From a virus (Duplodnaviria; Caudoviricetes): a DNA stretch of 64,000 bases. Shown piece by piece: positions 3,422-50,233 of this stretch. Every line of letters starts with the position of its first letter. Position 1 is the first letter of the stretch. A model generated the notes under the pieces. That model saw nothing but the letters and a program-made list of their open reading frames with translations, was not told the DNA's origin and made no database searches. Both the position numbers and the translations under genes were made by a program. Location: IMG/VR virus record IMGVR_UViG_3300028832_000096; one strand, 5' to 3'.

Positions 3422-3688
3422 TCAAATACCCTCGTAATCAAAGATTTGAGTGATATCGTCATCAGAATAACCTAAATCGGAAAGTCGACGATATATGTAT
3501 GCTTTAGCATCATCCTTGTTCGGAAATAGTGCAATAGCTTCATCTTTTATAGAGTCAATTTTCTCTAATTCATCAGGATTGAAACTACAAGTAATGTCAG
3601 TGGCACTTGTAATTTCCTCATCAGACTTGAATTGGCTCATCCTTAATTTAAGTGCTGCTAAGAAATCAGATACATTATCATATATCAT
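3422..3688 (-). CDS. Hypothetical acidic protein
   Basis: 88 aa, tightly packed; internal ITSA/ITCS motifs. Confidence 0.65.
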   Translation of the reverse strand: MIYDNVSDFLAALKLRMSQFKSDEEITSATDITCSFNPDELEKIDSIKDEAIALFPNKDDAKAYIYRRLSDLGYSDDDITQIFDYEGI

Positions 3689-3689
3689 A

Positions 3690-5345
3690 TTATTCTACCT
3701 CGTATTCTTTACCTTCAGTAGTCTTTATCTTTACATAACCTTTGTTCTTCTTTATCAACTGAGGGCACTTCTTTTCATCGCAGATAAGTGTGCCTATGTT
3801 ATAGAACTCATAAGGTTCATCATCTTTTTCCCACTTGATGGTAATATTAGGACAATCATCAAATACAGATTCACCTAATGTTGTTTTAGGATAGATAGTT
3901 ACTGTACCTGCATAATCATTATCAGCAAATGAGTAGTTACCTAAATGAGCTCCGTTAGGATTAATGTCGATTGATTTTAAGAACTTGCAATTTCTAAATG
4001 CGTTACTACCAATTTGAACTGCGCTTCTTAAATCAATAGTTTCTAACTTAGAACCAGAGAAAGCACCGGCACCAATAACTGTTGCATTGTTTAAATCAAA
4101 ATTAGTGAAGAATGTTCCTTGGAATGCGTGTTTAGGAATCTTAGTAACGCCACCAGGAATCTTAATAGCTTTACCATCTTCACCTACACCGGCACCGTTA
4201 AATATCTTTACGCCGATACGAGTTACGCTATCAGGTAACTGTTCCTCTAATGAAGCGCAATCTTCAAAACATCCTTCAAGTACATTCTTGAGATTTGAAC
4301 TGTGCTTGATGTGCTTAAGGTTTTCGCAACTAGCGAATGCATATTCTGAATAAGTAACGACGCTATCAGGAATTTCAATAGACTCTAAAGAAGTGCAGTT
4401 CCAAAAAGCCCTTCTAGGAATTGATGTGATTGTATTAGGAAGCTTGACAGATTTCAAATTAATGCAGTTATAGAATATCTCATTGCGCAATTTTGTAAGG
4501 CTGTCAGGAAGTACAATCTTTTCAACAGATTGAGGGAATTTTGCTTCAGGCAAAGCAGTCATTTCATCAGGAACTATAATTTCTGTAGCATCATCTGCAA
4601 AGCCCAAAACAGTCGATGCTCTATACTGAATTCCGTTTTCAGTCTTAAGCTCAAAGAACTTAGAAATAGCAGGATGTTCTTCGCAGAACTTATAAAAAGC
4701 ATCCATGCCCTGAGAGTCATCATGTATGTCGTACCAAGAGTTACTCTCAAAATGTAATTGATACTTCTCGTTATAATCAGAAGTATTGATAAAGACATAG
4801 AGAGGGCCCTTGCGGGTGTAACTATTATAGTAATAAGGGTCACCTTCGTATGCTGTGCACCAAGTGGCCTTTGTTCCACCTACACGAGCAAGTGAAACAG
4901 AACCAGGATAAGTAAGAGGAGTCCAAACTTCCCAAGGGCCGTCCTCAACTAAGAATTTTTTATCAACGTCACTTGCATGATGTGCTTGTTTCTTAAGCAG
5001 CTTAGCTTTTTCTTTTTCAGTAAGTTCTCTGTTACCTACTGCTTCAGTATCTGTTAAGAACTCATCTACTGTTTTATATTGGTTAAGGTCATTCTTAGGA
5101 TATATCTTGTAATTCTGCAAGAAATAACCTAATGCATCTTTTACATTAGTATACTGTTCCTTAGTAAGATTGCCTTTCTTAATTTGTCGAAATAACCAAG
5201 GACAATATTTACCTCCCTTGCCTGCTTCAAAATTAGCAGAAGGGTCTAATTCAACAACTTCCTGAAATTCAGAATCTTCTAAATCCGGAGCATCTTGCTC
5301 TTTGAGTTGTTGCAGTGTCTTTGCGGCTCTGATGTAAAATTTCAT
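3690..5345 (-). CDS. BspA-type leucine-rich repeat protein with N-terminal WCTA/PLY (PcfJ-like) domain and MKFYIRAA leader
   Basis: Repeats such as LKSVKLPNTITSIPRRAFWNCTSLESIEIPDSV; TWCTA...GPLYVFI...KYQLHF in the N-half. Confidence 0.8.
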   Translation of the reverse strand: MKFYIRAAKTLQQLKEQDAPDLEDSEFQEVVELDPSANFEAGKGGKYCPWLFRQIKKGNLTKEQYTNVKDALGYFLQNYKIYPKNDLNQYKTVDEFLTDTEAVGNRELTEKEKAKLLKKQAHHASDVDKKFLVEDGPWEVWTPLTYPGSVSLARVGGTKATWCTAYEGDPYYYNSYTRKGPLYVFINTSDYNEKYQLHFESNSWYDIHDDSQGMDAFYKFCEEHPAISKFFELKTENGIQYRASTVLGFADDATEIIVPDEMTALPEAKFPQSVEKIVLPDSLTKLRNEIFYNCINLKSVKLPNTITSIPRRAFWNCTSLESIEIPDSVVTYSEYAFASCENLKHIKHSSNLKNVLEGCFEDCASLEEQLPDSVTRIGVKIFNGAGVGEDGKAIKIPGGVTKIPKHAFQGTFFTNFDLNNATVIGAGAFSGSKLETIDLRSAVQIGSNAFRNCKFLKSIDINPNGAHLGNYSFADNDYAGTVTIYPKTTLGESVFDDCPNITIKWEKDDEPYEFYNIGTLICDEKKCPQLIKKNKGYVKIKTTEGKEYEVE

Positions 5346-5647
5346 TATCTGTCACCTTCACTTAGTGTTGTTTGAATATGCCTAATCATCATCTCTGTAT
5401 CAATAGGATAGTTAAGCGTAGTATTTACCGCTTTTACTAAGTTATCGGATACATGGATTTTATACAATGATAAAAGGTTAGCGCGATTAAATCGCTCAAC
5501 AAATAGAATTACAACCCTATCTATCAACCGGTCTTTATTCTTATAGTCCTTAGATAGAATGGATTGTAAATCTAAAATTACTGAATCAAACTCGTCTAGA
5601 GTTTTATGTGAAAAATAAGTTAATGGCCAAGCGCTAACAGATGCCAT
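5345..5647 (-). CDS. Hypothetical protein
   Basis: 100 aa, GAGG RBS, operon packing. Confidence 0.6.
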   Translation of the reverse strand: MASVSAWPLTYFSHKTLDEFDSVILDLQSILSKDYKNKDRLIDRVVILFVERFNRANLLSLYKIHVSDNLVKAVNTTLNYPIDTEMMIRHIQTTLSEGDR

Positions 5648-8992: not shown

Positions 8993-9313
8993 TTATGTCC
9001 AAGCAGCAGCATCATCAGCATGCACAATTTCTAATGCATTCATAATATCATCAAACAATTTATCTGCTTCTTCAACGGATAAATCGTCCCAATCTTCGGC
9101 TGCTTGACATTTATAATCTCTGATAACACTAGATACTCTTCCGCCTACAGGAGATTCTCCGTGGTAATCAAATTTACCATACTCCTTGTTAACTTCTCTT
9201 AAACAAGAACTAACTAAGTCGTATTTATCATGGTCAATAGTAGATAAGAATCTCTGTGCTTCTTTAATCTTGTCAAAATCAGGCCACTTGTTAGATTTAA
9301 TATACATTTTCAT
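8993..9313 (-). CDS. Hypothetical protein, MKMYIKS leader
   Basis: 106 aa, ATGA overlap with upstream gene. Confidence 0.75.
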   Translation of the reverse strand: MKMYIKSNKWPDFDKIKEAQRFLSTIDHDKYDLVSSCLREVNKEYGKFDYHGESPVGGRVSSVIRDYKCQAAEDWDDLSVEEADKLFDDIMNALEIVHADDAAAWT

Positions 9314-10068: not shown

Positions 10069-11190
10069 TTACAGATACATGAAAAGTTCTGCACCGCCAT
10101 CTTTTGCTAAATCATCAAACCAATTATCCGGAGAAAAATCGCAGATAACTCCATCTGTAAGATTACGAACTCTAATGAAATATCCTTTGTTGGCATACTC
10201 ATTTATGGTTTCATTAAGTGCAGATATATCAGAAGTTTCATAAGATTCTGCTAAACCTCTAAGCTGTTCATCGTAGTAACCTTCAACGAGGAAATCATCA
10301 TTTAACTCAGGGTCAGAAGAACCATTTACCATATTAGCGAAGTACTTTGTATCAGTTGAACAGTTAACATCTCCGCAAGCATCAACTGAATTATCTTCAA
10401 CCCAGAAATCCTTGCCGTAAACAGCATCTACAGGAGTATATCTTCCGCTGAACTCCCAAGAAAGCAATCTATTATCAGGAGTTACTATATAGGAAGTCCA
10501 CCAATTACCTGAACCGGATTTAGGTTCAAATACATCACCTTCTCCGGATGTATAGTGGAATTCATAACTATCACCATCTTTAAAGACTAATTTCTTATCA
10601 GGAATAGTGTAACTGGAAGCCTTGATGTCGTCACAAGCATCTACTCCAAAAACTCTATTATAAAGTGCTTCAAACTCCTCTGAAGTCATTTCTTCATCAT
10701 AGATTGCAAGAAGTTCTTCGGCTGTTGCTTTCTCAGTAATTTCTTCTGCATCACAGAAATCAAGATTCATATACTTATCGTTGTCTTCAAGCATATCTAA
10801 AACATTTCTCTGAAGGACTTTTCTAGATAATACTTTTGTTCCATCAGGTTTTGTGGTATAACTTTCGCCATTATATCTGCTGAAATGATAAGTCTTTGAT
10901 GCTTTGATATCTCCACAAGCTTCGACATCTTCGCAAGGAACAACATCTCCGTCCTTCTGGCAGTAACCTATCTGGTCAAGATACCTGTTGATTTCTGTCT
11001 CAGAAGGAATATCATACTGCTTGAGCTCATCTGCAGTTAAGAACCTATCAAGCCAAACCGCTGTGTAGTAGTTGGGCAAGTCCTTAGACCTAATAACATT
11101 TACATCTTTTGGAAGTGTTCCAGGGCCAACACCATGCTTAAAAATGTAGAGATAACCATTATTTGAACTTGATTTAATATAAACTTTCAT
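10069..11190 (-). CDS. Multidomain putative polyprotein, MKVYIKSS leader, N-terminal DarA_C-like domain
   Basis: YIFKHGVGPGTLP...LDRFLTADELKQYDI resembles DarA_C; three V(E/D)AC(G/D)D(I/V)(K/N)(A/C)S linkers. Confidence 0.7.
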   Translation of the reverse strand: MKVYIKSSSNNGYLYIFKHGVGPGTLPKDVNVIRSKDLPNYYTAVWLDRFLTADELKQYDIPSETEINRYLDQIGYCQKDGDVVPCEDVEACGDIKASKTYHFSRYNGESYTTKPDGTKVLSRKVLQRNVLDMLEDNDKYMNLDFCDAEEITEKATAEELLAIYDEEMTSEEFEALYNRVFGVDACDDIKASSYTIPDKKLVFKDGDSYEFHYTSGEGDVFEPKSGSGNWWTSYIVTPDNRLLSWEFSGRYTPVDAVYGKDFWVEDNSVDACGDVNCSTDTKYFANMVNGSSDPELNDDFLVEGYYDEQLRGLAESYETSDISALNETINEYANKGYFIRVRNLTDGVICDFSPDNWFDDLAKDGGAELFMYL

Positions 11191-11226
11191 AGGGAGTTCT
11201 CCTGTAAAATGTATTCTCTAATATAA

Positions 11227-11232
11227 AAGGTT
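11227..11232 (-). promoter_or_regulatory. AACCTT motif
   Basis: AACCTTTTATATT just after a terminator and upstream of start 11190. Confidence 0.55.
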
Positions 11233-11248
11233 AGTGTTGTTAACAATG

Positions 11249-11285
11249 AAAAAATAAAAGCAAGCAAGTATATATTCTTGCTTGC
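11249..11285 (-). terminator. Intrinsic terminator
   Basis: GCAAGCAAG/CTTGCTTGC stem followed by TTTTATTTTTT on the minus strand. Confidence 0.75.
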
Positions 11286-11311
11286 CTGTAGTGCAATTTA
11301 TCAAGTTGTTG

Positions 11312-12292
11312 TTATACGTTACTGATGTAAGCTTCAAGAGCTTTGTATATCTTATGCGAAACAATACCGTATACTTTATCAAGTATTACTTCATCTCTAT
11401 CTTTAAAAAGCTTCTGAACTTCCATAAATTCTTCAAAGCTTGTGATATCAAAGAGTACTTTCAATACATCATGCATGAGTGACTCATCCACAGGAGTTTC
11501 AACTTTCTTAGTATCAACAACTTTAGTACTAAGATAACTTTCGTGCAAGCGATTAAATCCTTTGCTTCCTCTTGTGATGTCAACCCCTCCATACAGTCCG
11601 CAAAGCATTCTTATAGTATTCAAATCAGGAATATCTTCTCCTGTAAAATACTTTTTAACAACATCTTCTTCTACATGAAGAAATACAGCGATGTCATTAG
11701 TAGAAAACTTAGAATTAGCGAACAATGACGGCCAGAATGTGTAATCTACGTCATCTTCCTGAACTACTTCAGGTTTTTCATTTTCAGCAGGGTCAGGTTC
11801 AACAGGTTTGCCTTCTTTGATTGCAAGATACTGCTCATGAGCATTTTTAAATTCTTCCTTACCTTTATCAAGAGGTATGTCAAACAAATTACAGTACTTC
11901 TCAAGAGCGGGCTTCCTAGGCATATTTCTACCACTGAAATTTGTAGAAACAACAGCAGGAGCAATGCCTGTCATCTTTGAAATATCTTCTAAAGAAAGAT
12001 TATTTTCCTCTCTAAGTTTATTCCAGAATGTGTCGTAATAGTGCTGTGTCTTCCTTTCTGAATCCCATTTCTTTTCCGCATTGTAGAAAGCATTATAACC
12101 TCTATCAAAAGGAATATCAAAAAGCTTGCACAACTGCTCGATATGATGCTCATTTCTTGGAGCCTTAACTCCTGCAAACCATGACCCGAGGGTTGATTGA
12201 GGGATACCTGTCTTCTTTGCAATGTATTTAAAAGACCAACCCCGCTTTGTTCTTTCGGTGTTCCAGAAAGTATCTTTTGCTGCTCTACTCAT
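11312..12292 (-). CDS. Transcription regulator with three tandem XRE-type HTH domains
   Basis: Three repeats beginning TFW, each with HTH pattern (IAKKTGIPQSTLGSWFAG; ISKMTGIAPAVVSTNFSG; IAVFLHVEEDVVKKYFTG). Confidence 0.8.
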   Translation of the reverse strand: MSRAAKDTFWNTERTKRGWSFKYIAKKTGIPQSTLGSWFAGVKAPRNEHHIEQLCKLFDIPFDRGYNAFYNAEKKWDSERKTQHYYDTFWNKLREENNLSLEDISKMTGIAPAVVSTNFSGRNMPRKPALEKYCNLFDIPLDKGKEEFKNAHEQYLAIKEGKPVEPDPAENEKPEVVQEDDVDYTFWPSLFANSKFSTNDIAVFLHVEEDVVKKYFTGEDIPDLNTIRMLCGLYGGVDITRGSKGFNRLHESYLSTKVVDTKKVETPVDESLMHDVLKVLFDITSFEEFMEVQKLFKDRDEVILDKVYGIVSHKIYKALEAYISNV

Positions 12293-21246: not shown

Positions 21247-21278
21247 TGGAAAATTCCTCCAAATCTATACGAATATAA

Positions 21279-21284
21279 AAGGTT
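21279..21284 (-). promoter_or_regulatory. AACCTT motif
   Basis: Upstream of the portal. Confidence 0.55.
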
Positions 21285-22851
21285 ACTTAAGGAATTTTTC
21301 AAGGTCTGCGTCTATCTGATATCTAGCGAAGAATGCAGATTCATCAAACATCGGAATATCTAATTCCCTTGCGGCCTGAATTGCTAATCCATCAATATTC
21401 TCTTTAATATCACCAACAACTACACACTGAACTTTCTTGTCGAAAGCAGTTACTACATCTGCAGAATAACTGTTGAAAATAGCAGTAATATCTTCTAAGC
21501 TTCCGTGCATGAATGTTCCGGTAATCATGATGCGCTTATTTCTAAGAATAGGGTCGCCATCAAATTTAACAATTCTATCTCCTTCAATAACCTTAATCTG
21601 GTCAGAGGACATGATTGTATCTAATTCTACGAGGTTTCTAGGATTATTCAACCAGTTGTTGAACCTGATAGGCAGGTCCATATCAAGCTCTGTTCTAATT
21701 CTACGAGGACCCTCTAAGTAATACTTAACTGTCTTGTAGTTGTTATTGCACTTGTTGCAGAACTTAACAAGCCACTCCCTGCTCATTCCTACATCGCCAT
21801 CAATACTTGCAAGTATGATTTCAGATAAATGCTTTTCAATCTTGATATCTTTATACTGAGGTAAAATAAGTAAGTCAGGAAGTATCTGGATTTCATGCTT
21901 TTCTAACAACTCATCAAATATGTTAGTGGGCAATTCAGGCAGACCTAATATCTTACAGAACCTTGTAACTCTAGGATACAATCTAGATATGCAGAATTCG
22001 TCAGAACAAACCATAGGACCAGATTGAGGGACATCAAGAATCTTACCGCAATATGTACATACAGAACGTCTAGATAATCTATTGCTATCCTCCTGTGCTT
22101 GTGTACTACTCCAAATTACCTTGTTACCTTCAAGAACAATCTGAGAATCTTTCTGAATATTAAATGCTACAGCATCAGGATAATCCATTGTAAGTGTAAC
22201 ATTATCACCATACACAACGCCATATTTAATATAACCGTCATGGTCTGTAAATCTCTGTGGTGTTTCAATTACTTTAGCTGTTGTTAAGTCTGTTGAATGG
22301 AATACGCCTTTGTTCTGTCCTTCAAAGACAATAAAGCCAGCTATAAGAGGATATTCAAAATGAATATAAGAATTTCCTGTGATATATGTTTTGAGTGTTT
22401 CTGCTGTTGCATCATAAGGAACTGCCCAACAAGGAAGCGATTCAAAACCAACCATCTTTGTCCAAGCCTGCATAGATGAAGGTGTTATTTGCATTGCGCC
22501 GCTTTCTACAGCACCTACATAGAATCTATATCCAGGAGTTCCTGATTTCATATCAGCTACAATGGAGTCAAATTCGCAATCAGGAAGAATTCCTTGTTTA
22601 GCATTAATCTTAGGAGAATAGAAAACACCAATAATATCGGTAGTGCCTCCATGAAGCTTGATTGAGTTAGGAACTAAGCCCTCTTTAACAATCAGCTTCA
22701 GAAATTCTTCTCCAAGGTCAGTTTTAACATTGATGCCCTGATACACTTTGTGAAGTATTCCATGAACATCATAACGAAGTGTAGCAAGAAGACCCATAGG
22801 CACGATATAAGCTAACGAACCTGGAGTACAAACGGTTTTTGTGAACAGCAT
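21283..22851 (-). CDS. Degenerate NAD-dependent DNA ligase-like protein (adenylation-like, OB, Zn-finger, BRCT)
   Basis: CTYCG...CSDEFC Zn finger; BRCT (IMITGTF...VVVG...ARELDIPMFDE); motif I reads IVPMG instead of KxDG. Confidence 0.65.
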   Translation of the reverse strand: MLFTKTVCTPGSLAYIVPMGLLATLRYDVHGILHKVYQGINVKTDLGEEFLKLIVKEGLVPNSIKLHGGTTDIIGVFYSPKINAKQGILPDCEFDSIVADMKSGTPGYRFYVGAVESGAMQITPSSMQAWTKMVGFESLPCWAVPYDATAETLKTYITGNSYIHFEYPLIAGFIVFEGQNKGVFHSTDLTTAKVIETPQRFTDHDGYIKYGVVYGDNVTLTMDYPDAVAFNIQKDSQIVLEGNKVIWSSTQAQEDSNRLSRRSVCTYCGKILDVPQSGPMVCSDEFCISRLYPRVTRFCKILGLPELPTNIFDELLEKHEIQILPDLLILPQYKDIKIEKHLSEIILASIDGDVGMSREWLVKFCNKCNNNYKTVKYYLEGPRRIRTELDMDLPIRFNNWLNNPRNLVELDTIMSSDQIKVIEGDRIVKFDGDPILRNKRIMITGTFMHGSLEDITAIFNSYSADVVTAFDKKVQCVVVGDIKENIDGLAIQAARELDIPMFDESAFFARYQIDADLEKFLK

Positions 22852-27488: not shown

Positions 27489-27872
27489 TTAATAATGTGA
27501 CATCATTGGTTTAATATCCTTATTTAATCTTTGTAATTCAACTGCAACGGTATCTAATACAGCATCTACATATTCATAAGGAGTTTCATACATTTCGTCA
27601 TCGTAGTCAGGGATTCTTCCTGTGCTAACTTCTTTACCTTTTTGAATATATCTTACCTGAAGCGGCTGTAAAGCTCCGATTTGTGCCCAAATATAAGGTG
27701 CTTCATCATAAGGGTGAATTTCAGATATTGTAGCTTTGAATTGGTCTAAATCCCCTAATTTATCGGCATCGACCATATGGCAACTAAACTTCTGTCTGCC
27801 CTGATTAAAAGATACATATTCGGTTAATTGCGAATTAAAATCCGAACTTGATTTAATATATCTTTTCATCAT
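27489..27872 (-). CDS. Hypothetical protein, MKRYIKSS leader
   Basis: 127 aa, AAAGGAGATAT RBS. Confidence 0.75.
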   Translation of the reverse strand: MMKRYIKSSSDFNSQLTEYVSFNQGRQKFSCHMVDADKLGDLDQFKATISEIHPYDEAPYIWAQIGALQPLQVRYIQKGKEVSTGRIPDYDDEMYETPYEYVDAVLDTVAVELQRLNKDIKPMMSHY

Positions 27873-47817: not shown

Positions 47818-50233
47818 TTAATTAATTACATCGCCGTTAACTCTGTGATGAATGTTATCTACGAAATCTGAAGGTGATATCTTATATTTGTGAATATAAT
47901 CATACATTGCGTCTTCTACTTCCTTTGACCAAGTACCATTTACACCTAATGCAGCATCGCCTATCGGCTTCTTACCGTCTTTATCTTTATAGACCGGTAA
48001 CGTATATTCGCACTCAAATAAGTGATACTGTATCCATTTGATTTCTGATTCAGATAATGTATCTAACGAACCAAAGTTGATGTTAGGCTGCTCATATGAA
48101 CAAGGGAAACTTAATCCGTACCACTTATAAGTTATTTCAACATCACAACTGATAGGGAATGGCAAGAAGTTACCTGCCTCGCTCATCATCTTACCTAAGA
48201 TTTCTGATGCTCTAATAGCATTTCTGATAGGAACTTCTGCAATTATTTCATCATGTACAGGAAGTAATACTTTTGCTCCAAGCTGTTCCCACTCCTTGTT
48301 ACTAAATACTTTAAGCATCGCCATCTTAGTAAGGTCAGCAGCTGAGCCTTGAATTATACTGTTTACACATTTTCTAGAAGCATCAGTAATCTTTCTAGAA
48401 TTATTGATTACTTTGATGTGTTCATCTTGTAAACGCTTTGTTGCCTTTACTACCTGGCCATAATACTTATAGTTATTGAATTCTTCCTCGAGCTTCTTAA
48501 CGATTCTTTCAGGAATTTCATTCTTATTATTAAGTGTTGAAGGGTCAAGTGGGTCAATATCAGGATTTATATATCCCTTAGCGGCCTTAAATTCATAAGG
48601 TTTCAACTGCATATCAGGAATGTGCCTACGCCTACCTAATATAGTTTCAACATAACCATATTTACGAGCATCGCTTTGTGCTTTAATCATGAATGCTCTA
48701 AGATTAGGGAAAGCATTCAGAACTGCGTCATATATAACTTGAGCTTCTTTAGTGCGTTGCTCATCAGTCATCTGTTTATTCCCGCCAAATAACTGGTCAC
48801 CAATAGTTTTTGTAGACCTTCCGTAAAGAATACCTAATACTATGCTTTTTGCTTGACTTCTGCGCTCCTTACCTTCTCTGTTAACTTCATCTGTTTTATT
48901 TCCGTTTGCATCGAAGAAATGTTCGGAACACTCTTCATAAGTTTTGTTGAAAGCAAGTGCTGCAATAGTAGAATAGATGTCTCTATTATGTTTAAAAGCA
49001 TCTATCATATTCGGGTCCGAACTGACAAACGCTGTCATTTTTGGTTCTTGTTGCTATCTTAGTTATGTGCTCGTTACGCACTTCTCTTGTTACCAAGAGT
49101 GTCGGACTATCTCTTGAATACTATATACTGTTACTATATACAGTAAGCCCTGGCATTTCCATTTAACAGATTTACTATAGACTATTATCATCTATAAACT
49201 GACCGACTTCGGCTGTACCCTACTTGCTTGGTTATCTCAATCTACCTGAATTCTCATTTACATATTTCTATGATTGTAGATTTTTAGCTTTTGGTAGTCT
49301 CTACACACGATAGACCCATTTTAACCCTTTGATGTATTTGTCAAATTTAGCAGATTCTTTAATTTTGTCGTTTAATTGGTCGCTAGATTTAACGGTTCCA
49401 TAACCATTAGCATACCACCAATTAGCAGCATCTTTGACACGCTCAAACTCAGCTACAAAACTGCCTTGTGTATCAATACAATAAACGCATTTGTTTTTTG
49501 AATCATTTAACGCTTTATAATGTGCTTCGCTAAGTTTAAAAGATTTCCTAAATTTTGCCCTAACTTCTTGACCTTTTTCAGAAGCATATAAAGCTTTTCG
49601 GCTATCAGATAGATGTTTTTTATGCTCTTTAGAAGGCCCACCTCTATCTTTATATGATTGCTTCATTGATTCCGAAATGCGTTTACGGACATCTTCGCTA
49701 CGCATTATATTATCATGCTTTTCTTTTACTATTACAGAATACATTGTATTTATTGACCCTCCAGGAGCCATATTGTATCCATTTCTTATAGTATCATATT
49801 TAGCAATATAATATGCTTCGAGTTCATTGAGCGTATCTTGGTCCTCCACTTCAGCAATAATTTGAAAGTGAAATTTGTCCCATCCGTACTTTCGCATTGC
49901 ATTATACAAATGAGTATTGACGTCAGACACCATGCTATTTCGATGCCCATCTATTCGTTCTTTCAATGTTTTAGTGGTTTGACCAATATACAATTTGTCA
50001 TTTACATCATTGGTTATCTTATATATCAACATATTCGGCACCTCCAAGATATATTAAAGGTTATTCCCAACAAGTTGATAGTCTATCTTGCTCGGTATTG
50101 TCTCTCTAACGAACCTTATTAGAAAGAGTTCACCGACTTAACCAGGTTTTACTACAGCCAACACTTAACTGTAGTCAGCAGACAACATCACGCAAGGTGG
50201 AGTCATCACTGGAATTTGAAATTTCTTTGACAA
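47818..50233 (-). CDS. Family A DNA polymerase, C-terminal subunit; spliced exon 1 50233-50168, exon 2 49053-47818 (about 433 aa)
   Basis: TTG start 8 nt after AAGGAGGT; MSKKFQIPVMTPPCVMLSADYS|QQEPKMTAF restores motif A; motif B RSQAKSIVLGILYG; motif C VHDE. Confidence 0.8.
49301..50032 (-). CDS. Intron-encoded GIY-YIG homing endonuclease
   Basis: LIYKITN...LYIGQT...R...H...E...GYN; GGAGGT RBS before ATG 50032. Confidence 0.9.
   Translation of the reverse strand: MLIYKITNDVNDKLYIGQTTKTLKERIDGHRNSMVSDVNTHLYNAMRKYGWDKFHFQIIAEVEDQDTLNELEAYYIAKYDTIRNGYNMAPGGSINTMYSVIVKEKHDNIMRSEDVRKRISESMKQSYKDRGGPSKEHKKHLSDSRKALYASEKGQEVRAKFRKSFKLSEAHYKALNDSKNKCVYCIDTQGSFVAEFERVKDAANWWYANGYGTVKSSDQLNDKIKESAKFDKYIKGLKWVYRV
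50057..50062 (-). promoter_or_regulatory. AACCTT motif inside the group I intron
   Basis: AACCTTTAATAT about 25 nt upstream of the GIY-YIG ORF. Confidence 0.55.

What the first reader, a model, noticed from the sequence alone, without database searches (positions are those of the whole stretch)
10069..11190. Apparent polyprotein: four small domains separated by repeated copies of the tag core
Seen: after MKVYIKSS there are three similar linkers, EDVEACGDIKASK (~10898-10932), GVDACDDIKASS (~10612-10644) and SVDACGDVNCST (~10351-10386). Each holds paired (V/I)-x-(A/C)-(C/S) sites, and IKAS is identical to the core of the N-terminal tag. The first domain resembles DarA_C; P1 DarA is a processed internal head protein linked to anti-restriction. 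Inference: one packaged precursor cut by the head protease into about four effectors. This independently supports the tag being a cleavage signal. Similar internal sites occur in 3422-3688 (ITSATDITCS) and before the KTSC domain of 62824-63450 (IVTAA).
Basis: partly seen in the sequence, partly recalled or inferred. Interest (0 to 1): 0.8.

Follow-up and report, generated by a model that had tools for sequence, protein, structure and literature searches.

The report
Phage cargo polyprotein with cut-site linkers
A large uncultured phage strings four small folded proteins into one chain, joined by short flexible connectors that look like its capsid protease's cutting sites, so it probably loads several small proteins into the virus head with one gene; no cut has been measured.

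Summary
ORF 10069-11190 (-) encodes 373 aa: the tag MKVYIKSS, then four modules separated by VEACGDIKAS, VDACDDIKAS and VDACGDVNCS. This paired motif occurs nowhere else in about 89 window ORFs (0.004 expected per shuffled protein).

AlphaFold2 gives four confident domains; the tag and all three linkers are disordered.

Among 241 homologues the modules are shuffled, and the same linker follows D1 in 115 distinct junctions and precedes D4 in about 80. Each module also exists as a separate gene. There the N-terminal tag replaces the linker in the same register (offset 0 in 382 of 2345 pairs, against 28 at random). A syntenic relative splits the locus into two tagged genes.

Close relatives have a T4-type head module. 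Its gp21-family protease-scaffold carries RIKA|S, TIKA|S and QVAA|S at conserved positions, and the gp23-family capsid propeptide carries five such sites.

Best reading (0.6): a capsid-loaded precursor cut by the head protease into about four small proteins. Cleavage, packaging and effector function are all inferred.

D1 is only weakly DarA_C-like, and the YodL hit is spurious. The scan has flagged the same kind of polyprotein in other genomes, one with the same VEAC linker. I found no published description.

The parts
10069..11190 (-). Whole polyprotein ORF, 373 aa (P0001)
11258..11287 (-). Terminator-like hairpin (11 pairs plus a T run) that ends the upstream HTH gene's unit
11220..11234 (-). 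Promoter-like motif CTAACCTTTTATATT, 29 nt before the ATG. The same motif precedes the protease-scaffold/capsid operon of relative G005.
11167..11190 (-). N-terminal tag MKVYIKSS (aa 1-8), disordered in the model
10933..11166 (-). Module D1 (aa 9-86), a weakly DarA_C-like alpha/beta domain, pLDDT above 90
10897..10932 (-). Linker 1, EDVEACGDIKAS (aa 87-98): sites VEA|C and IKA|S
10648..10896 (-). Module D2 (aa 99-181), helical, with no family match. It is a stand-alone 84-85-aa gene elsewhere; in P0155 and P0163 the Met aligns with S98.
10615..10647 (-). Linker 2, GVDACDDIKAS (aa 182-192)
10390..10614 (-). Module D3 (aa 193-267), a beta domain. Stand-alone tagged forms are P0237 (MKRYIRAT...) and P0150 (the KYP-type tag).
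10357..10389 (-). Linker 3, SVDACGDVNCS (aa 268-278)
10300..10356 (-). Conserved but disordered leader of D4 (TDTKYFANMVNGSSDPELN). It holds a third site-like motif (VNG|S, usually VSA|S) and is replaced by an N-terminal tag in P0159.
10072..10299 (-). Module D4 core (aa 298-373), an alpha/beta domain with pLDDT 94-97. It is the C-terminal bookend in about 110 homologues.
8993..9313 (-). Stand-alone tagged gene (MKMYIKS|N...). It is homologous (E 2e-30) to an internal module of other phages' polyproteins, where ...DITSSTEVKA|A takes the tag's place.
27489..27872 (-). Stand-alone tagged gene (MMKRYIKSS...), homologous to internal modules that follow D1 in P0177, P0207 and P0213

Best explanation
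The gene encodes a precursor of several small virion-internal proteins. It appears to be made late, because its promoter-like motif matches the one before the head genes of a close relative. The N-terminal tag MKxY-IKS|S is built like a compressed T4 capsid-targeting sequence and would direct the chain into the assembling prohead. There the gp21-family head-maturation protease would cut after the small residue of each [I/V]-x-[A/S/C/G]|[S/C/T/A] site. The same sites stud the protease's own scaffold and the capsid propeptide. Cutting would remove the tag and sever the three disordered linkers, leaving about four folded products of 8-11 kDa (D1-D4), free to leave the head with the DNA. The paired sites give redundancy and trim the leftover tail. 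Because the linker is portable, related phages add, drop, swap or split modules at it. Shown here: the modular anatomy, the disordered linkers, the in-register interchange of tag and linker, the T4-type head module in relatives, and conserved motif positions in the scaffold and capsid propeptide. Inferred: cleavage itself, which protease does it, packaging, ejection, and any anti-defence role.
For: Motif statistics show 3 copies against 0.004 expected. AF2 gives four domains with pLDDT 90 or more, with pLDDT below 50 at aa 1-8, 92-108, 184-194 and 271-292, and pTM 0.37. Architectures among 241 homologues are D1 alone 122, D1-D4 89, D4 12, D3 5, D2 3, plus D1-D3, D3-D4 and even D4-D1. The linker follows D1 in 115 distinct junctions with unrelated downstream sequence. 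A site sits in a fixed register before D4 in most of 83 distinct junctions. Stand-alone forms exist: D2 = P0155/P0163, whose Met aligns with S98; D3 = P0237 and P0150; D4 = P0136 and P0159. Tag P1' and internal-site P1' coincide in 382 of 2345 homologous pairs, against 28 at random positions. Window genes 8993-9313 and 27489-27872 are tagged stand-alone versions of internal modules of other polyproteins. The syntenic relative L002 has the locus as two tagged genes. A second leader type, MKRKFTKYPSx[IV]xAS, ends in the same site. 83% of linker-bearing homologues are tagged, against 39% of the rest. Head module of relative G005: the 497-aa protein matches phrog_207, head maturation protease, at E 8e-19; PF03420 is recorded on most of its listed homologues (more than 1200 found); the capsid protein matches Gp23 at E 1.5e-17. 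Conserved scaffold sites are QVAA|S 98%, RIKA|S 99%, TIKA|S 81%, VVA|S 97%, ISA|S 91% and VTA|S 97%, with 18.9 sites per protein against 6.2 when shuffled. The capsid propeptide has five conserved sites, the last directly before the conserved ATNTSNI. The T4 capsid-targeting sequence MKTYQEFIAE was verified in the T4 record, and Tyr4 and Ile8/Glu10 are its targeting and processing residues (PMC9026906). phiKZ-type propeptides carry redundant sites (PMC9026906, PMC10052503). The same promoter-like motif precedes this gene and the G005 protease/capsid operon.
Against: No cut, packaging or ejection has been observed, and the phage is uncultured. Every gp21-family protease characterised so far (T4, phiKZ, SPN3US) cuts after Glu, so Ala/Ser specificity is an inference from motif positions only. 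I used a relative with 81-83% identical structural proteins. Site 1 of the linker has a strong preference for acid at P2 and Cys at P1' (81%), which plain redundancy does not explain. 25 of 148 linker-bearing homologues have no N-terminal tag. D1 and D4 are conserved as bookends, which could mean the intact chain has a function. D2 occurs untagged among replication genes of an unrelated 105-kb phage, so its modules need not be virion cargo.
Confidence: 0.6

Rival explanations
1. The protein is an uncleaved multidomain (polyvalent-type) protein. The linkers are only conserved flexible spacers and favoured joints for module shuffling, and the chain acts intact.
For: Shuffling happens exactly at the linkers. 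D1 and D4 are kept together as bookends in 89 homologues. No cleavage data exist.
Against: A spacer needs no conserved sequence, yet the motif is nearly invariant across junctions whose flanks are unrelated. It is interchangeable in register with N-terminal tags placed 4-8 residues from the Met. The linker DNA copies are only about 70% identical, with no long identical run, so they are poor recombination substrates. The same motif is conserved in the scaffold and capsid propeptide, which in T4-type heads are degraded.
Confidence: 0.14
2. The chain is cleaved at the linkers by something other than the prohead protease, or somewhere else. Candidates are a host protease, another phage protease, or Cys-dependent self-cleavage at A|C after entry into the host.
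For: Site 1 almost always has Cys (81%) and an acidic P2, unlike the scaffold and capsid sites. 17% of linker-bearing proteins lack a tag.
Against: Many junctions have no Cys at all, for example VKGSTSVKAAT and VVASGTVEAAK. A 10-residue disordered linker has no fold to catalyse an acyl shift. The motif's co-occurrence in the scaffold and capsid propeptide points to the head protease.
Confidence: 0.12
3. The tag and linkers are binding motifs rather than cut sites. They would be repeated docking peptides for the scaffold core or capsid interior that raise the avidity of loading.
For: In the T4 capsid-targeting sequence, the targeting and processing determinants are separable (PMC9026906). The conserved KYFANMV leader before D4 looks like a short linear motif.
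Against: What is shared between tags and linkers is the part that corresponds to the T4 processing residues (P3 to P1), not the MKxY part. Stand-alone genes begin exactly at the predicted P1'.
Confidence: 0.08
4. The linkers are small structured metal- or disulfide-forming elements.
For: Cysteines recur (C86, C92, C186, C272, C277).
Against: pLDDT is below 50 in all linkers. L2 has a single Cys. Cys is replaced by Ser, Thr or Ala in 19% of site-1 copies, and whole junctions lack it.
Confidence: 0.03

Closest known systems
Phage T4 internal proteins IPI, IPII, IPIII and Alt: capsid-targeting sequence plus gp21 processing (PMC9026906)
   Same: Both have a short N-terminal leader starting MK-x-Y and ending in a P3-aliphatic protease site (T4 MKTYQEFIAE|, verified). 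Both come with a gp21-family protease and a gp23-family capsid protein. The products are small (about 8-20 kDa) and vary between related phages.
   Different: Here the leader is 7 residues, not 10. P1 is Ala/Ser/Cys/Gly rather than Glu. One precursor carries internal sites that would yield several folded products. T4 leaders are removed from single-domain proteins.
Polyvalent proteins of phages and conjugative elements (Iyer et al. 2017, PMC5512222)
   Same: Both have several unrelated, heavily shuffled modules in one polypeptide of a mobile element. A DarA-related domain is present. Both are predicted to be delivered with the DNA and processed into units.
   Different: This protein is small (373 aa, modules of 75-95 aa). 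It has no embedded zincin-like peptidase and none of the hallmark enzymatic domains. Processing would be written in a conserved linker read by the capsid protease.
Head and ejection protein maturation in phiKZ, 201phi2-1 and SPN3US by gp21-like proteases (PMC9026906, PMC10052503)
   Same: Many head proteins are cut at a short motif, and several redundant sites occur close together.
   Different: In the characterised cases (best documented for SPN3US) the cuts follow Glu and remove propeptides, nearly all N-terminal, leaving one mature product per precursor. Here several folded products are predicted.
Herpesvirus assemblin-scaffold precursor with release and maturation sites (PMC4498786; HCMV substrate ...Asn-Ala-Ser-Ser..., PMC13486704)
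   Same: The protease is fused to its scaffold. The sites have the form branched-aliphatic-x-Ala|Ser. One site lies right after the protease domain (QVAA|SS) and others lie near the scaffold C-terminus. That assemblin and gp21 share a fold is from my own knowledge and was not tested here.
   Different: This is a bacterial virus. The resemblance in specificity is inferred from motifs only.
Phage P1 DarA (PMC9024508, PMC12810830)
   Same: DarA is an internal head protein, cut by the head protease and linked to anti-restriction. D1 aligns weakly with DarA aa 409-469.
   Different: DarA loses one N-terminal piece of about 9 kDa and stays bound to the capsid wall. D1 scores below the Pfam cut-off, and DarA_N is absent.

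Membership tests
T4-type capsid-targeted internal protein (CTS cargo) | Short N-terminal leader (Lys2, Tyr4) ending in a prohead-protease-type site | tested here: met
   The tag is MKVYIKS|S. At least 12 further window ORFs share it. The T4 leader MKTYQEFIAE was verified.
T4-type capsid-targeted internal protein (CTS cargo) | The phage has a gp21-family protease and a gp23-family capsid protein | tested here: met
   In relative G005: phrog_207 at E 8e-19, PF03420 at 22.7 bits, and Gp23 at E 1.5e-17. Most listed homologues carry PF03420. Capsid protein P0244 comes from a contig of the same length (193,604 bp) as this gene's. The window genome's own protease was not read.
T4-type capsid-targeted internal protein (CTS cargo) | Cut after Glu in (L/I)-x-E | tested here: not met
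   P1 is A, S, C or G in tags, linkers, scaffold and capsid propeptide.
T4-type capsid-targeted internal protein (CTS cargo) | Found inside the capsid with the leader removed | not testable with these tools
   Needs virion proteomics.
Polyvalent proteins (Iyer et al. 2017) | Two or more unrelated, shuffled domains in one phage or plasmid polypeptide | tested here: met
   Four AF2 domains; the architecture table.
Polyvalent proteins (Iyer et al. 2017) | Embedded processing peptidase (MPTase) or other hallmark enzymatic domains | tested here: not met
   No Pfam or PHROG domain in the protein or its modules apart from a weak DarA_C hit.
DarA_C (PF18789) | HMM score at or above the 27-bit gathering cut-off | tested here: inconclusive
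   D1 scores 14.8 bits, E 0.042. 33 of 42 D1 relatives hit at E 1 or less, best 4.4e-5, all below the cut-off. hhalign to P1 DarA aa 409-469 gives E 0.15. ESM Atlas structural neighbours have TM about 0.5.
YodL (PF14191) | HMM match to the module | tested here: not met
   The whole protein gives E 0.038 across a linker. D2 alone and the stand-alone D2 proteins give no hit.
Peptidase_S77 (the protease invoked) | HMM match at the curated cut-off | tested here: inconclusive
   The G005 protein scores 22.7 bits against a cut-off of 27, but the family is recorded for most of its 120 listed homologues and phrog_207 matches at 8e-19. Catalytic residues were not checked.

The most novel reading that the evidence does not exclude
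A large clade of ~200-kb rumen/gut-type phages has re-specified its T4-family head protease from Glu to small residues, which makes it assemblin-like. The clade has more than 1200 protease-scaffold relatives. It would use a portable two-site linker ([V/I]-[E/D]-A-C-x-x-[V/I]-x-A-S) as a universal cut-here cassette. Any small protein can then be fused into, or split out of, a capsid-loaded precursor. That gives a combinatorial way to evolve the set of proteins injected with the DNA, with D1 (DarA_C-like) and D4 as conserved carrier ends.
Probability: 0.4. Interest if true: 0.8.

Novelty: new variant of a known kind. Interest (0 to 1): 0.66.

Why it matters
If the linkers are cut, one short tag and one 10-residue connector are enough to load a changeable set of small proteins into a phage head. 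That would extend the T4 capsid-targeting idea from single proteins to polyproteins. It would show a gp21-family protease with a different specificity. It would also give a sequence rule for finding virion-delivered proteins, which are likely early host-takeover or anti-defence factors, in uncultured phages. Finally, it offers a compact, natural design for packaging foreign proteins in phage capsids. Every module here (D2-D4 and dozens in the homologues) is of unknown function, so the family is a catalogue of candidates to test.

Tried and rejected
- Searches of cultured phages (INPHARED) with the protein and with 25 kb of DNA found nothing.
The window phage's own protease was therefore not read; I worked through IMG/VR relatives.
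- The genome search with PF03420 found no candidate in eight relatives' records, although hmmscan and PHROGs later identified the protease. That blank was a sensitivity limit.
- Fold searches of the whole model against PDB, BFVD and VIA-wide gave nothing above chance. The best was Z 5.7 for D4, and small inhibitor-like folds such as Dmd and AcrIF9 at Z 4-5 are not meaningful.
- The YodL hit was rejected.
- hhalign of the capsid family to T4 gp23 aligned only the C-terminal half, so the T4 cut site could not be mapped onto this capsid protein.
- A literature search for the tag string found nothing relevant. Searches for the assemblin consensus gave only indirect support.
- The one D1 relative carrying a crAss_CARG1 domain was not among the ten proteins I rescanned.
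- Metal-site and recombination-joint readings were considered and ranked low (see rivals).

Full report
**1. What is there.**
Window 10069-11190 (minus strand) is one open frame of 373 aa. It reads:
- tag MKVYIKSS (aa 1-8)
- D1 (aa 9-86)
- linker EDVEACGDIKAS (aa 87-98)
- D2 (aa 99-181)
- linker GVDACDDIKAS (aa 182-192)
- D3 (aa 193-267)
- linker SVDACGDVNCS (aa 268-278)
- a conserved leader TDTKYFANMVNGSSDPELN (aa 279-297)
- D4 core (aa 298-373)

The coordinates were checked. Each linker is a pair of [I/V]-x-[A/C]-[C/S] sites two residues apart.

The paired motif occurs three times here and nowhere else in about 89 window ORFs. Shuffles of this protein give a mean of 0.004, and none of 5000 reached three. 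The three copies use different synonymous codons, so the peptide is what is conserved, not the DNA.

The gene begins a transcription unit. A terminator-like hairpin lies at 11287-11258. It is followed by CTAACCTTTTATATT at 11234-11220 and a Shine-Dalgarno sequence.

At least twelve other ORFs of the window start with MKx[Y/F]I[K/R].

**2. Structure.**
AlphaFold2 was run on a 75-sequence alignment (A1). It gives four compact domains: D1, D3 and D4 at pLDDT 90-97, and D2 at 57-74. Confidence drops below 50 at exactly aa 1-8, 92-108, 184-194 and 271-292. pTM is 0.37, so no fixed arrangement between domains is predicted.

The tag and all three linkers are therefore predicted to be flexible and exposed.

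Fold searches of the model gave nothing above background.

**3. Relatives.**
The protein has about 300 representative relatives in metagenomes and none in cultured phages. The modules behave as independent units:

| Architecture | Homologues |
|---|---|
| D1 alone | 122 |
| D1...D4 | 89 |
| D4 alone | 12 |
| D3 alone | 5 |
| D2 alone | 3 |
| D1-D3, D3-D4, D4-D1 | 2 each |

- After D1 (…GDVVPC) the linker [D/E]-[V/I]-x-A-C-x-x-[V/I]-x-A-[S/T] follows in nearly all of 115 distinct junctions, whatever comes next.
- Before D4 a site sits in a fixed register ([I/V]-x-small-[S/C/T]-x-x-K-YFANMV) in most of 83 distinct junctions, whatever comes before.
- Over 299 two-residue-spaced pairs, site 1 is V/I-E/D-A-C (Cys in 81%) and site 2 is V/I-T/K-A-S.
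- Junctions without any cysteine exist, such as VKGSTSVKAAT and VVASGTVEAAK.

**4. Tag and linker are interchangeable.**
Each module also occurs as a separate gene.
- D2: P0155 and P0163 (85 aa), whose Met aligns with S98, the predicted P1'.
- D3: P0237 (MKRYIRAT…, ending at FWVE) and P0150.
- D4: P0136 (MKRRFTKYPSNVTAS-KKPR-YFANMV…) and P0159.
- D1: also found without a tag (MTGYLYILKHG…).

A second leader type, MKRKFTKYPSx[I/V]xAS, ends in the same site.

I took every homologous pair in which one protein aligns from its N-terminus and the other internally. I projected the tag's P1' onto the internal partner. It falls exactly on a site's P1' in 382 of 2345 pairs, against 28 for random positions. 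Secondary peaks at -2, -6 and -10 probably reflect the paired upstream site and gapped alignments. The pairs are not phylogenetically independent.

Two tagged stand-alone genes of this very window are homologous to internal modules of other phages' polyproteins:
- 8993-9313: MKMYIKS|N… aligns with …DITSSTEVKA|A…, E 2e-30.
- 27489-27872.

A family of MKIYAS/MKIYCS paralogues in relative G005 matches the module that follows D1 in many polyproteins.

In the syntenic relative L002, the locus is two adjacent genes:
- MKRLINAS-D1-linker-X
- MKILHSVTAS-Y-INACDKVISS-D4

Linker-bearing homologues are tagged in 83% of cases, against 39% of the others.

A motif that works both at an N-terminus and between domains cannot be an initiation or N-end signal. 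A protease site is the simplest reading.

**5. The protease.**
The window's own head genes lie outside it and could not be fetched. IMG/VR relative G005 is 200,233 bp, and its 812-aa structural protein is 83% identical to the window's. Around its head genes, in order, it has:
- a 372-aa KYP-tagged polyprotein-like gene with linkers DIEGCGDIKAS… and IDACGPVESCGDINACGD;
- one tagged 265-aa gene;
- a 497-aa protease-scaffold fusion (phrog_207 head maturation protease, E 8e-19; Peptidase_S77 at 22.7 bits);
- a Gp23-family capsid protein (E 1.5e-17).

The fusion has more than 1200 homologues, and PF03420 is recorded for most of the 120 listed.

In an alignment of those 120, sites are conserved in position:

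| Site | Conserved in | Position |
|---|---|---|
| QVAA\|SS | 98% | directly after the protease domain |
| RIKA\|S | 99% | scaffold |
| TIKA\|S | 81% | scaffold |
| VVA\|S | 97% | scaffold |
| ISA\|S | 91% | scaffold |
| VTA\|S | 97% | scaffold |
| LIKC\|ATNT | 93% | scaffold |

There are 18.9 sites per protein, against 6.2 ± 2.1 after shuffling.

The capsid family includes P0244, from a contig of the same length (193,604 bp) as this gene's. Its basic propeptide of about 85 residues has five conserved sites: ITA|S, INA|G, ITA|x, IKA|S or VAA|S, and VMA|A. The last lies directly before the conserved ATNTSNI….

In G005 the scaffold has the fourth-highest motif density of 283 ORFs, 2.8 per 100 aa against 0.69 for the proteome.

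Scaffold and capsid propeptide are exactly what T4-type proteases destroy (PMC9026906). So [I/V]-x-small|small is the likely specificity, but this has not been measured.

The motif TAACCTTT[T/A]AT occurs ten times in G005, always 30-116 nt before an ORF. One copy precedes the protease/capsid operon and another precedes the unit holding the KYP-tagged polyprotein. The exact 15-mer sits before the window gene. This suggests co-expression with head genes.

**6. Comparison with the known.**
- **T4.** The T4 capsid-targeting sequence is MKTYQEFIAE|, found twice in NC_000866. Residues 4 and 7 are needed for targeting, and residues 8 and 10 for processing (PMC9026906). The tag here keeps Lys2 and Tyr4, then goes straight into I-K-A|S.
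- **phiKZ and SPN3US.** Their proteases also use clustered redundant sites, but after Glu. They essentially remove propeptides and leave one product per precursor (PMC9026906, PMC10052503).
- **Polyvalent proteins.** These are the closest concept for a shuffled multi-module delivered protein (PMC5512222), but they carry their own peptidase and enzymatic domains.
- **Herpesvirus assemblin.** The site chemistry and the protease-scaffold fusion recall assemblin (PMC4498786; the substrate in PMC13486704 reads …N-A-S-S…). The shared fold of assemblin and gp21 is from my own knowledge.

**7. The modules.**
- D1 is weakly DarA_C-like. It scores 14.8 bits against a cut-off of 27. 33 of 42 relatives hit at E 1 or less, with the best at 4.4e-5. 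hhalign to P1 DarA aa 409-469 gives E 0.15. Structural neighbours (DarA_C and DpnD-PcfM) have TM about 0.5. I do not file it as a member.
- The YodL hit is spurious.
- D2-D4 match nothing.
- D2 is an untagged 84-aa gene among replication genes of an unrelated 105-kb phage. This suggests an intracellular role that does not depend on packaging.
- An anti-defence function is a guess based on analogy with T4 IPI and P1 Dar.

**8. Weak points.**
- No experimental evidence exists.
- The protease specificity is inferred.
- The window phage's own protease was not read.
- The acid and Cys preference of site 1 is unexplained.
- 17% of linker-bearing proteins are untagged.
- The D1/D4 bookend conservation could mean the intact chain has a role.

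**9. Earlier notes of this scan.**
The tag had been reported on other windows of this genome. The same kind of polyprotein has been reported in other genomes, one with the same VEAC-xx-[IV]T[ASC]S linker, and those reports reached the same reading. I treated them as leads. The tests above are my own.

I found no published description of the tag, the linker or the family.

**Verdict.**
This is a new variant of a known kind. My confidence in the precursor-cut-by-head-protease model is 0.6.

Noticed in passing
window 11220-11234 (-), 21272-21286 (-), 5467-5481 (-); G005 (L018-L028), ten copies: A promoter-like motif (C)TAACCTTT[T/A]AT(ATT) lies 30-116 nt upstream of ORFs only. These include the head protease/capsid operon of G005 and several tagged genes. 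It is probably the late promoter of this phage group.
   Followed up: partly
L017:8120-9238 (+) = G005 152119-153237: A 372-aa polyprotein-like gene has the second leader type (MKRRFTKYPSNYVGAAS) and triple-site linkers (IDACGPVESCGDINACGD). It sits two genes upstream of the protease-scaffold and capsid genes. G005 has no D1-D4 orthologue at the syntenic slot, so the window gene is accessory.
   Followed up: partly
L002:6773-8127 (+): A syntenic relative carries the locus as two adjacent tagged genes (tag-D1-linker-X and MKILHSVTAS-Y-linker-D4). This is a natural split of the polyprotein.
   Followed up: yes
G005, e.g. 48515-48847, 114336-116594, 139361-144297, 147823-148439 (+): At least a dozen paralogues of about 100-120 aa start MKIYAS, MKIYCS or MKIYAN. 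This is a shorter tag in which I-Y-A|S is itself a site. They are homologous to the module that follows D1 in many polyproteins.
   Followed up: partly
window 10300-10356 (-), aa 279-297: The leader of D4 (K-YFANMV-S/N-A/C-S) is strongly conserved yet predicted disordered. It contains a further site-like motif and is replaced by an N-terminal tag in P0159. It may be an internal tag-like or docking element.
   Followed up: partly
linkers of 241 homologues (P0001-P0241): The first site of the pair strongly prefers an acidic P2 and Cys at P1' (81%). The second prefers T/K and Ser. The reason for the cysteine is unexplained.
   Followed up: partly
L017:10309-11802 (+) aa 458-470 and L017:11837-13276 (+) aa 82-96: The scaffold C-terminal region (…LIKC|ATNTSNIGAMPSF) repeats the predicted mature N-terminus of the capsid protein (…VMA|ATNTSNIMAKPEF). 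This may be a shared docking or recognition element.
   Followed up: no
alignment A2 (D1 relatives): One short D1-containing protein also matches the crAssvirus cargo protein 1 domain (PF25725, E 1e-5). I did not identify which member.
   Followed up: partly
window 11312-12292 (-): The upstream neighbour is a 326-aa protein with repeated XRE-type helix-turn-helix domains (HTH_3, E 1e-17), ended by the hairpin at 11258-11287.
   Followed up: no
window 3690-5345 (-): This tagged 551-aa protein (MKFYIRAA) carries BspA-type leucine-rich repeats (LRR_5, E 8.5e-51). Its aa ~128-237 are homologous to the N-terminal module of other tagged polyproteins (P0112, P0139).
   Followed up: partly
window 49301-50032 (-): This ORF starts MLIYKITNDVNDKLYIGQT, which looks like a GIY-YIG homing endonuclease, and lies between two ORFs that may be DNA-polymerase pieces. 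This was read from the ORF list only.
   Followed up: no
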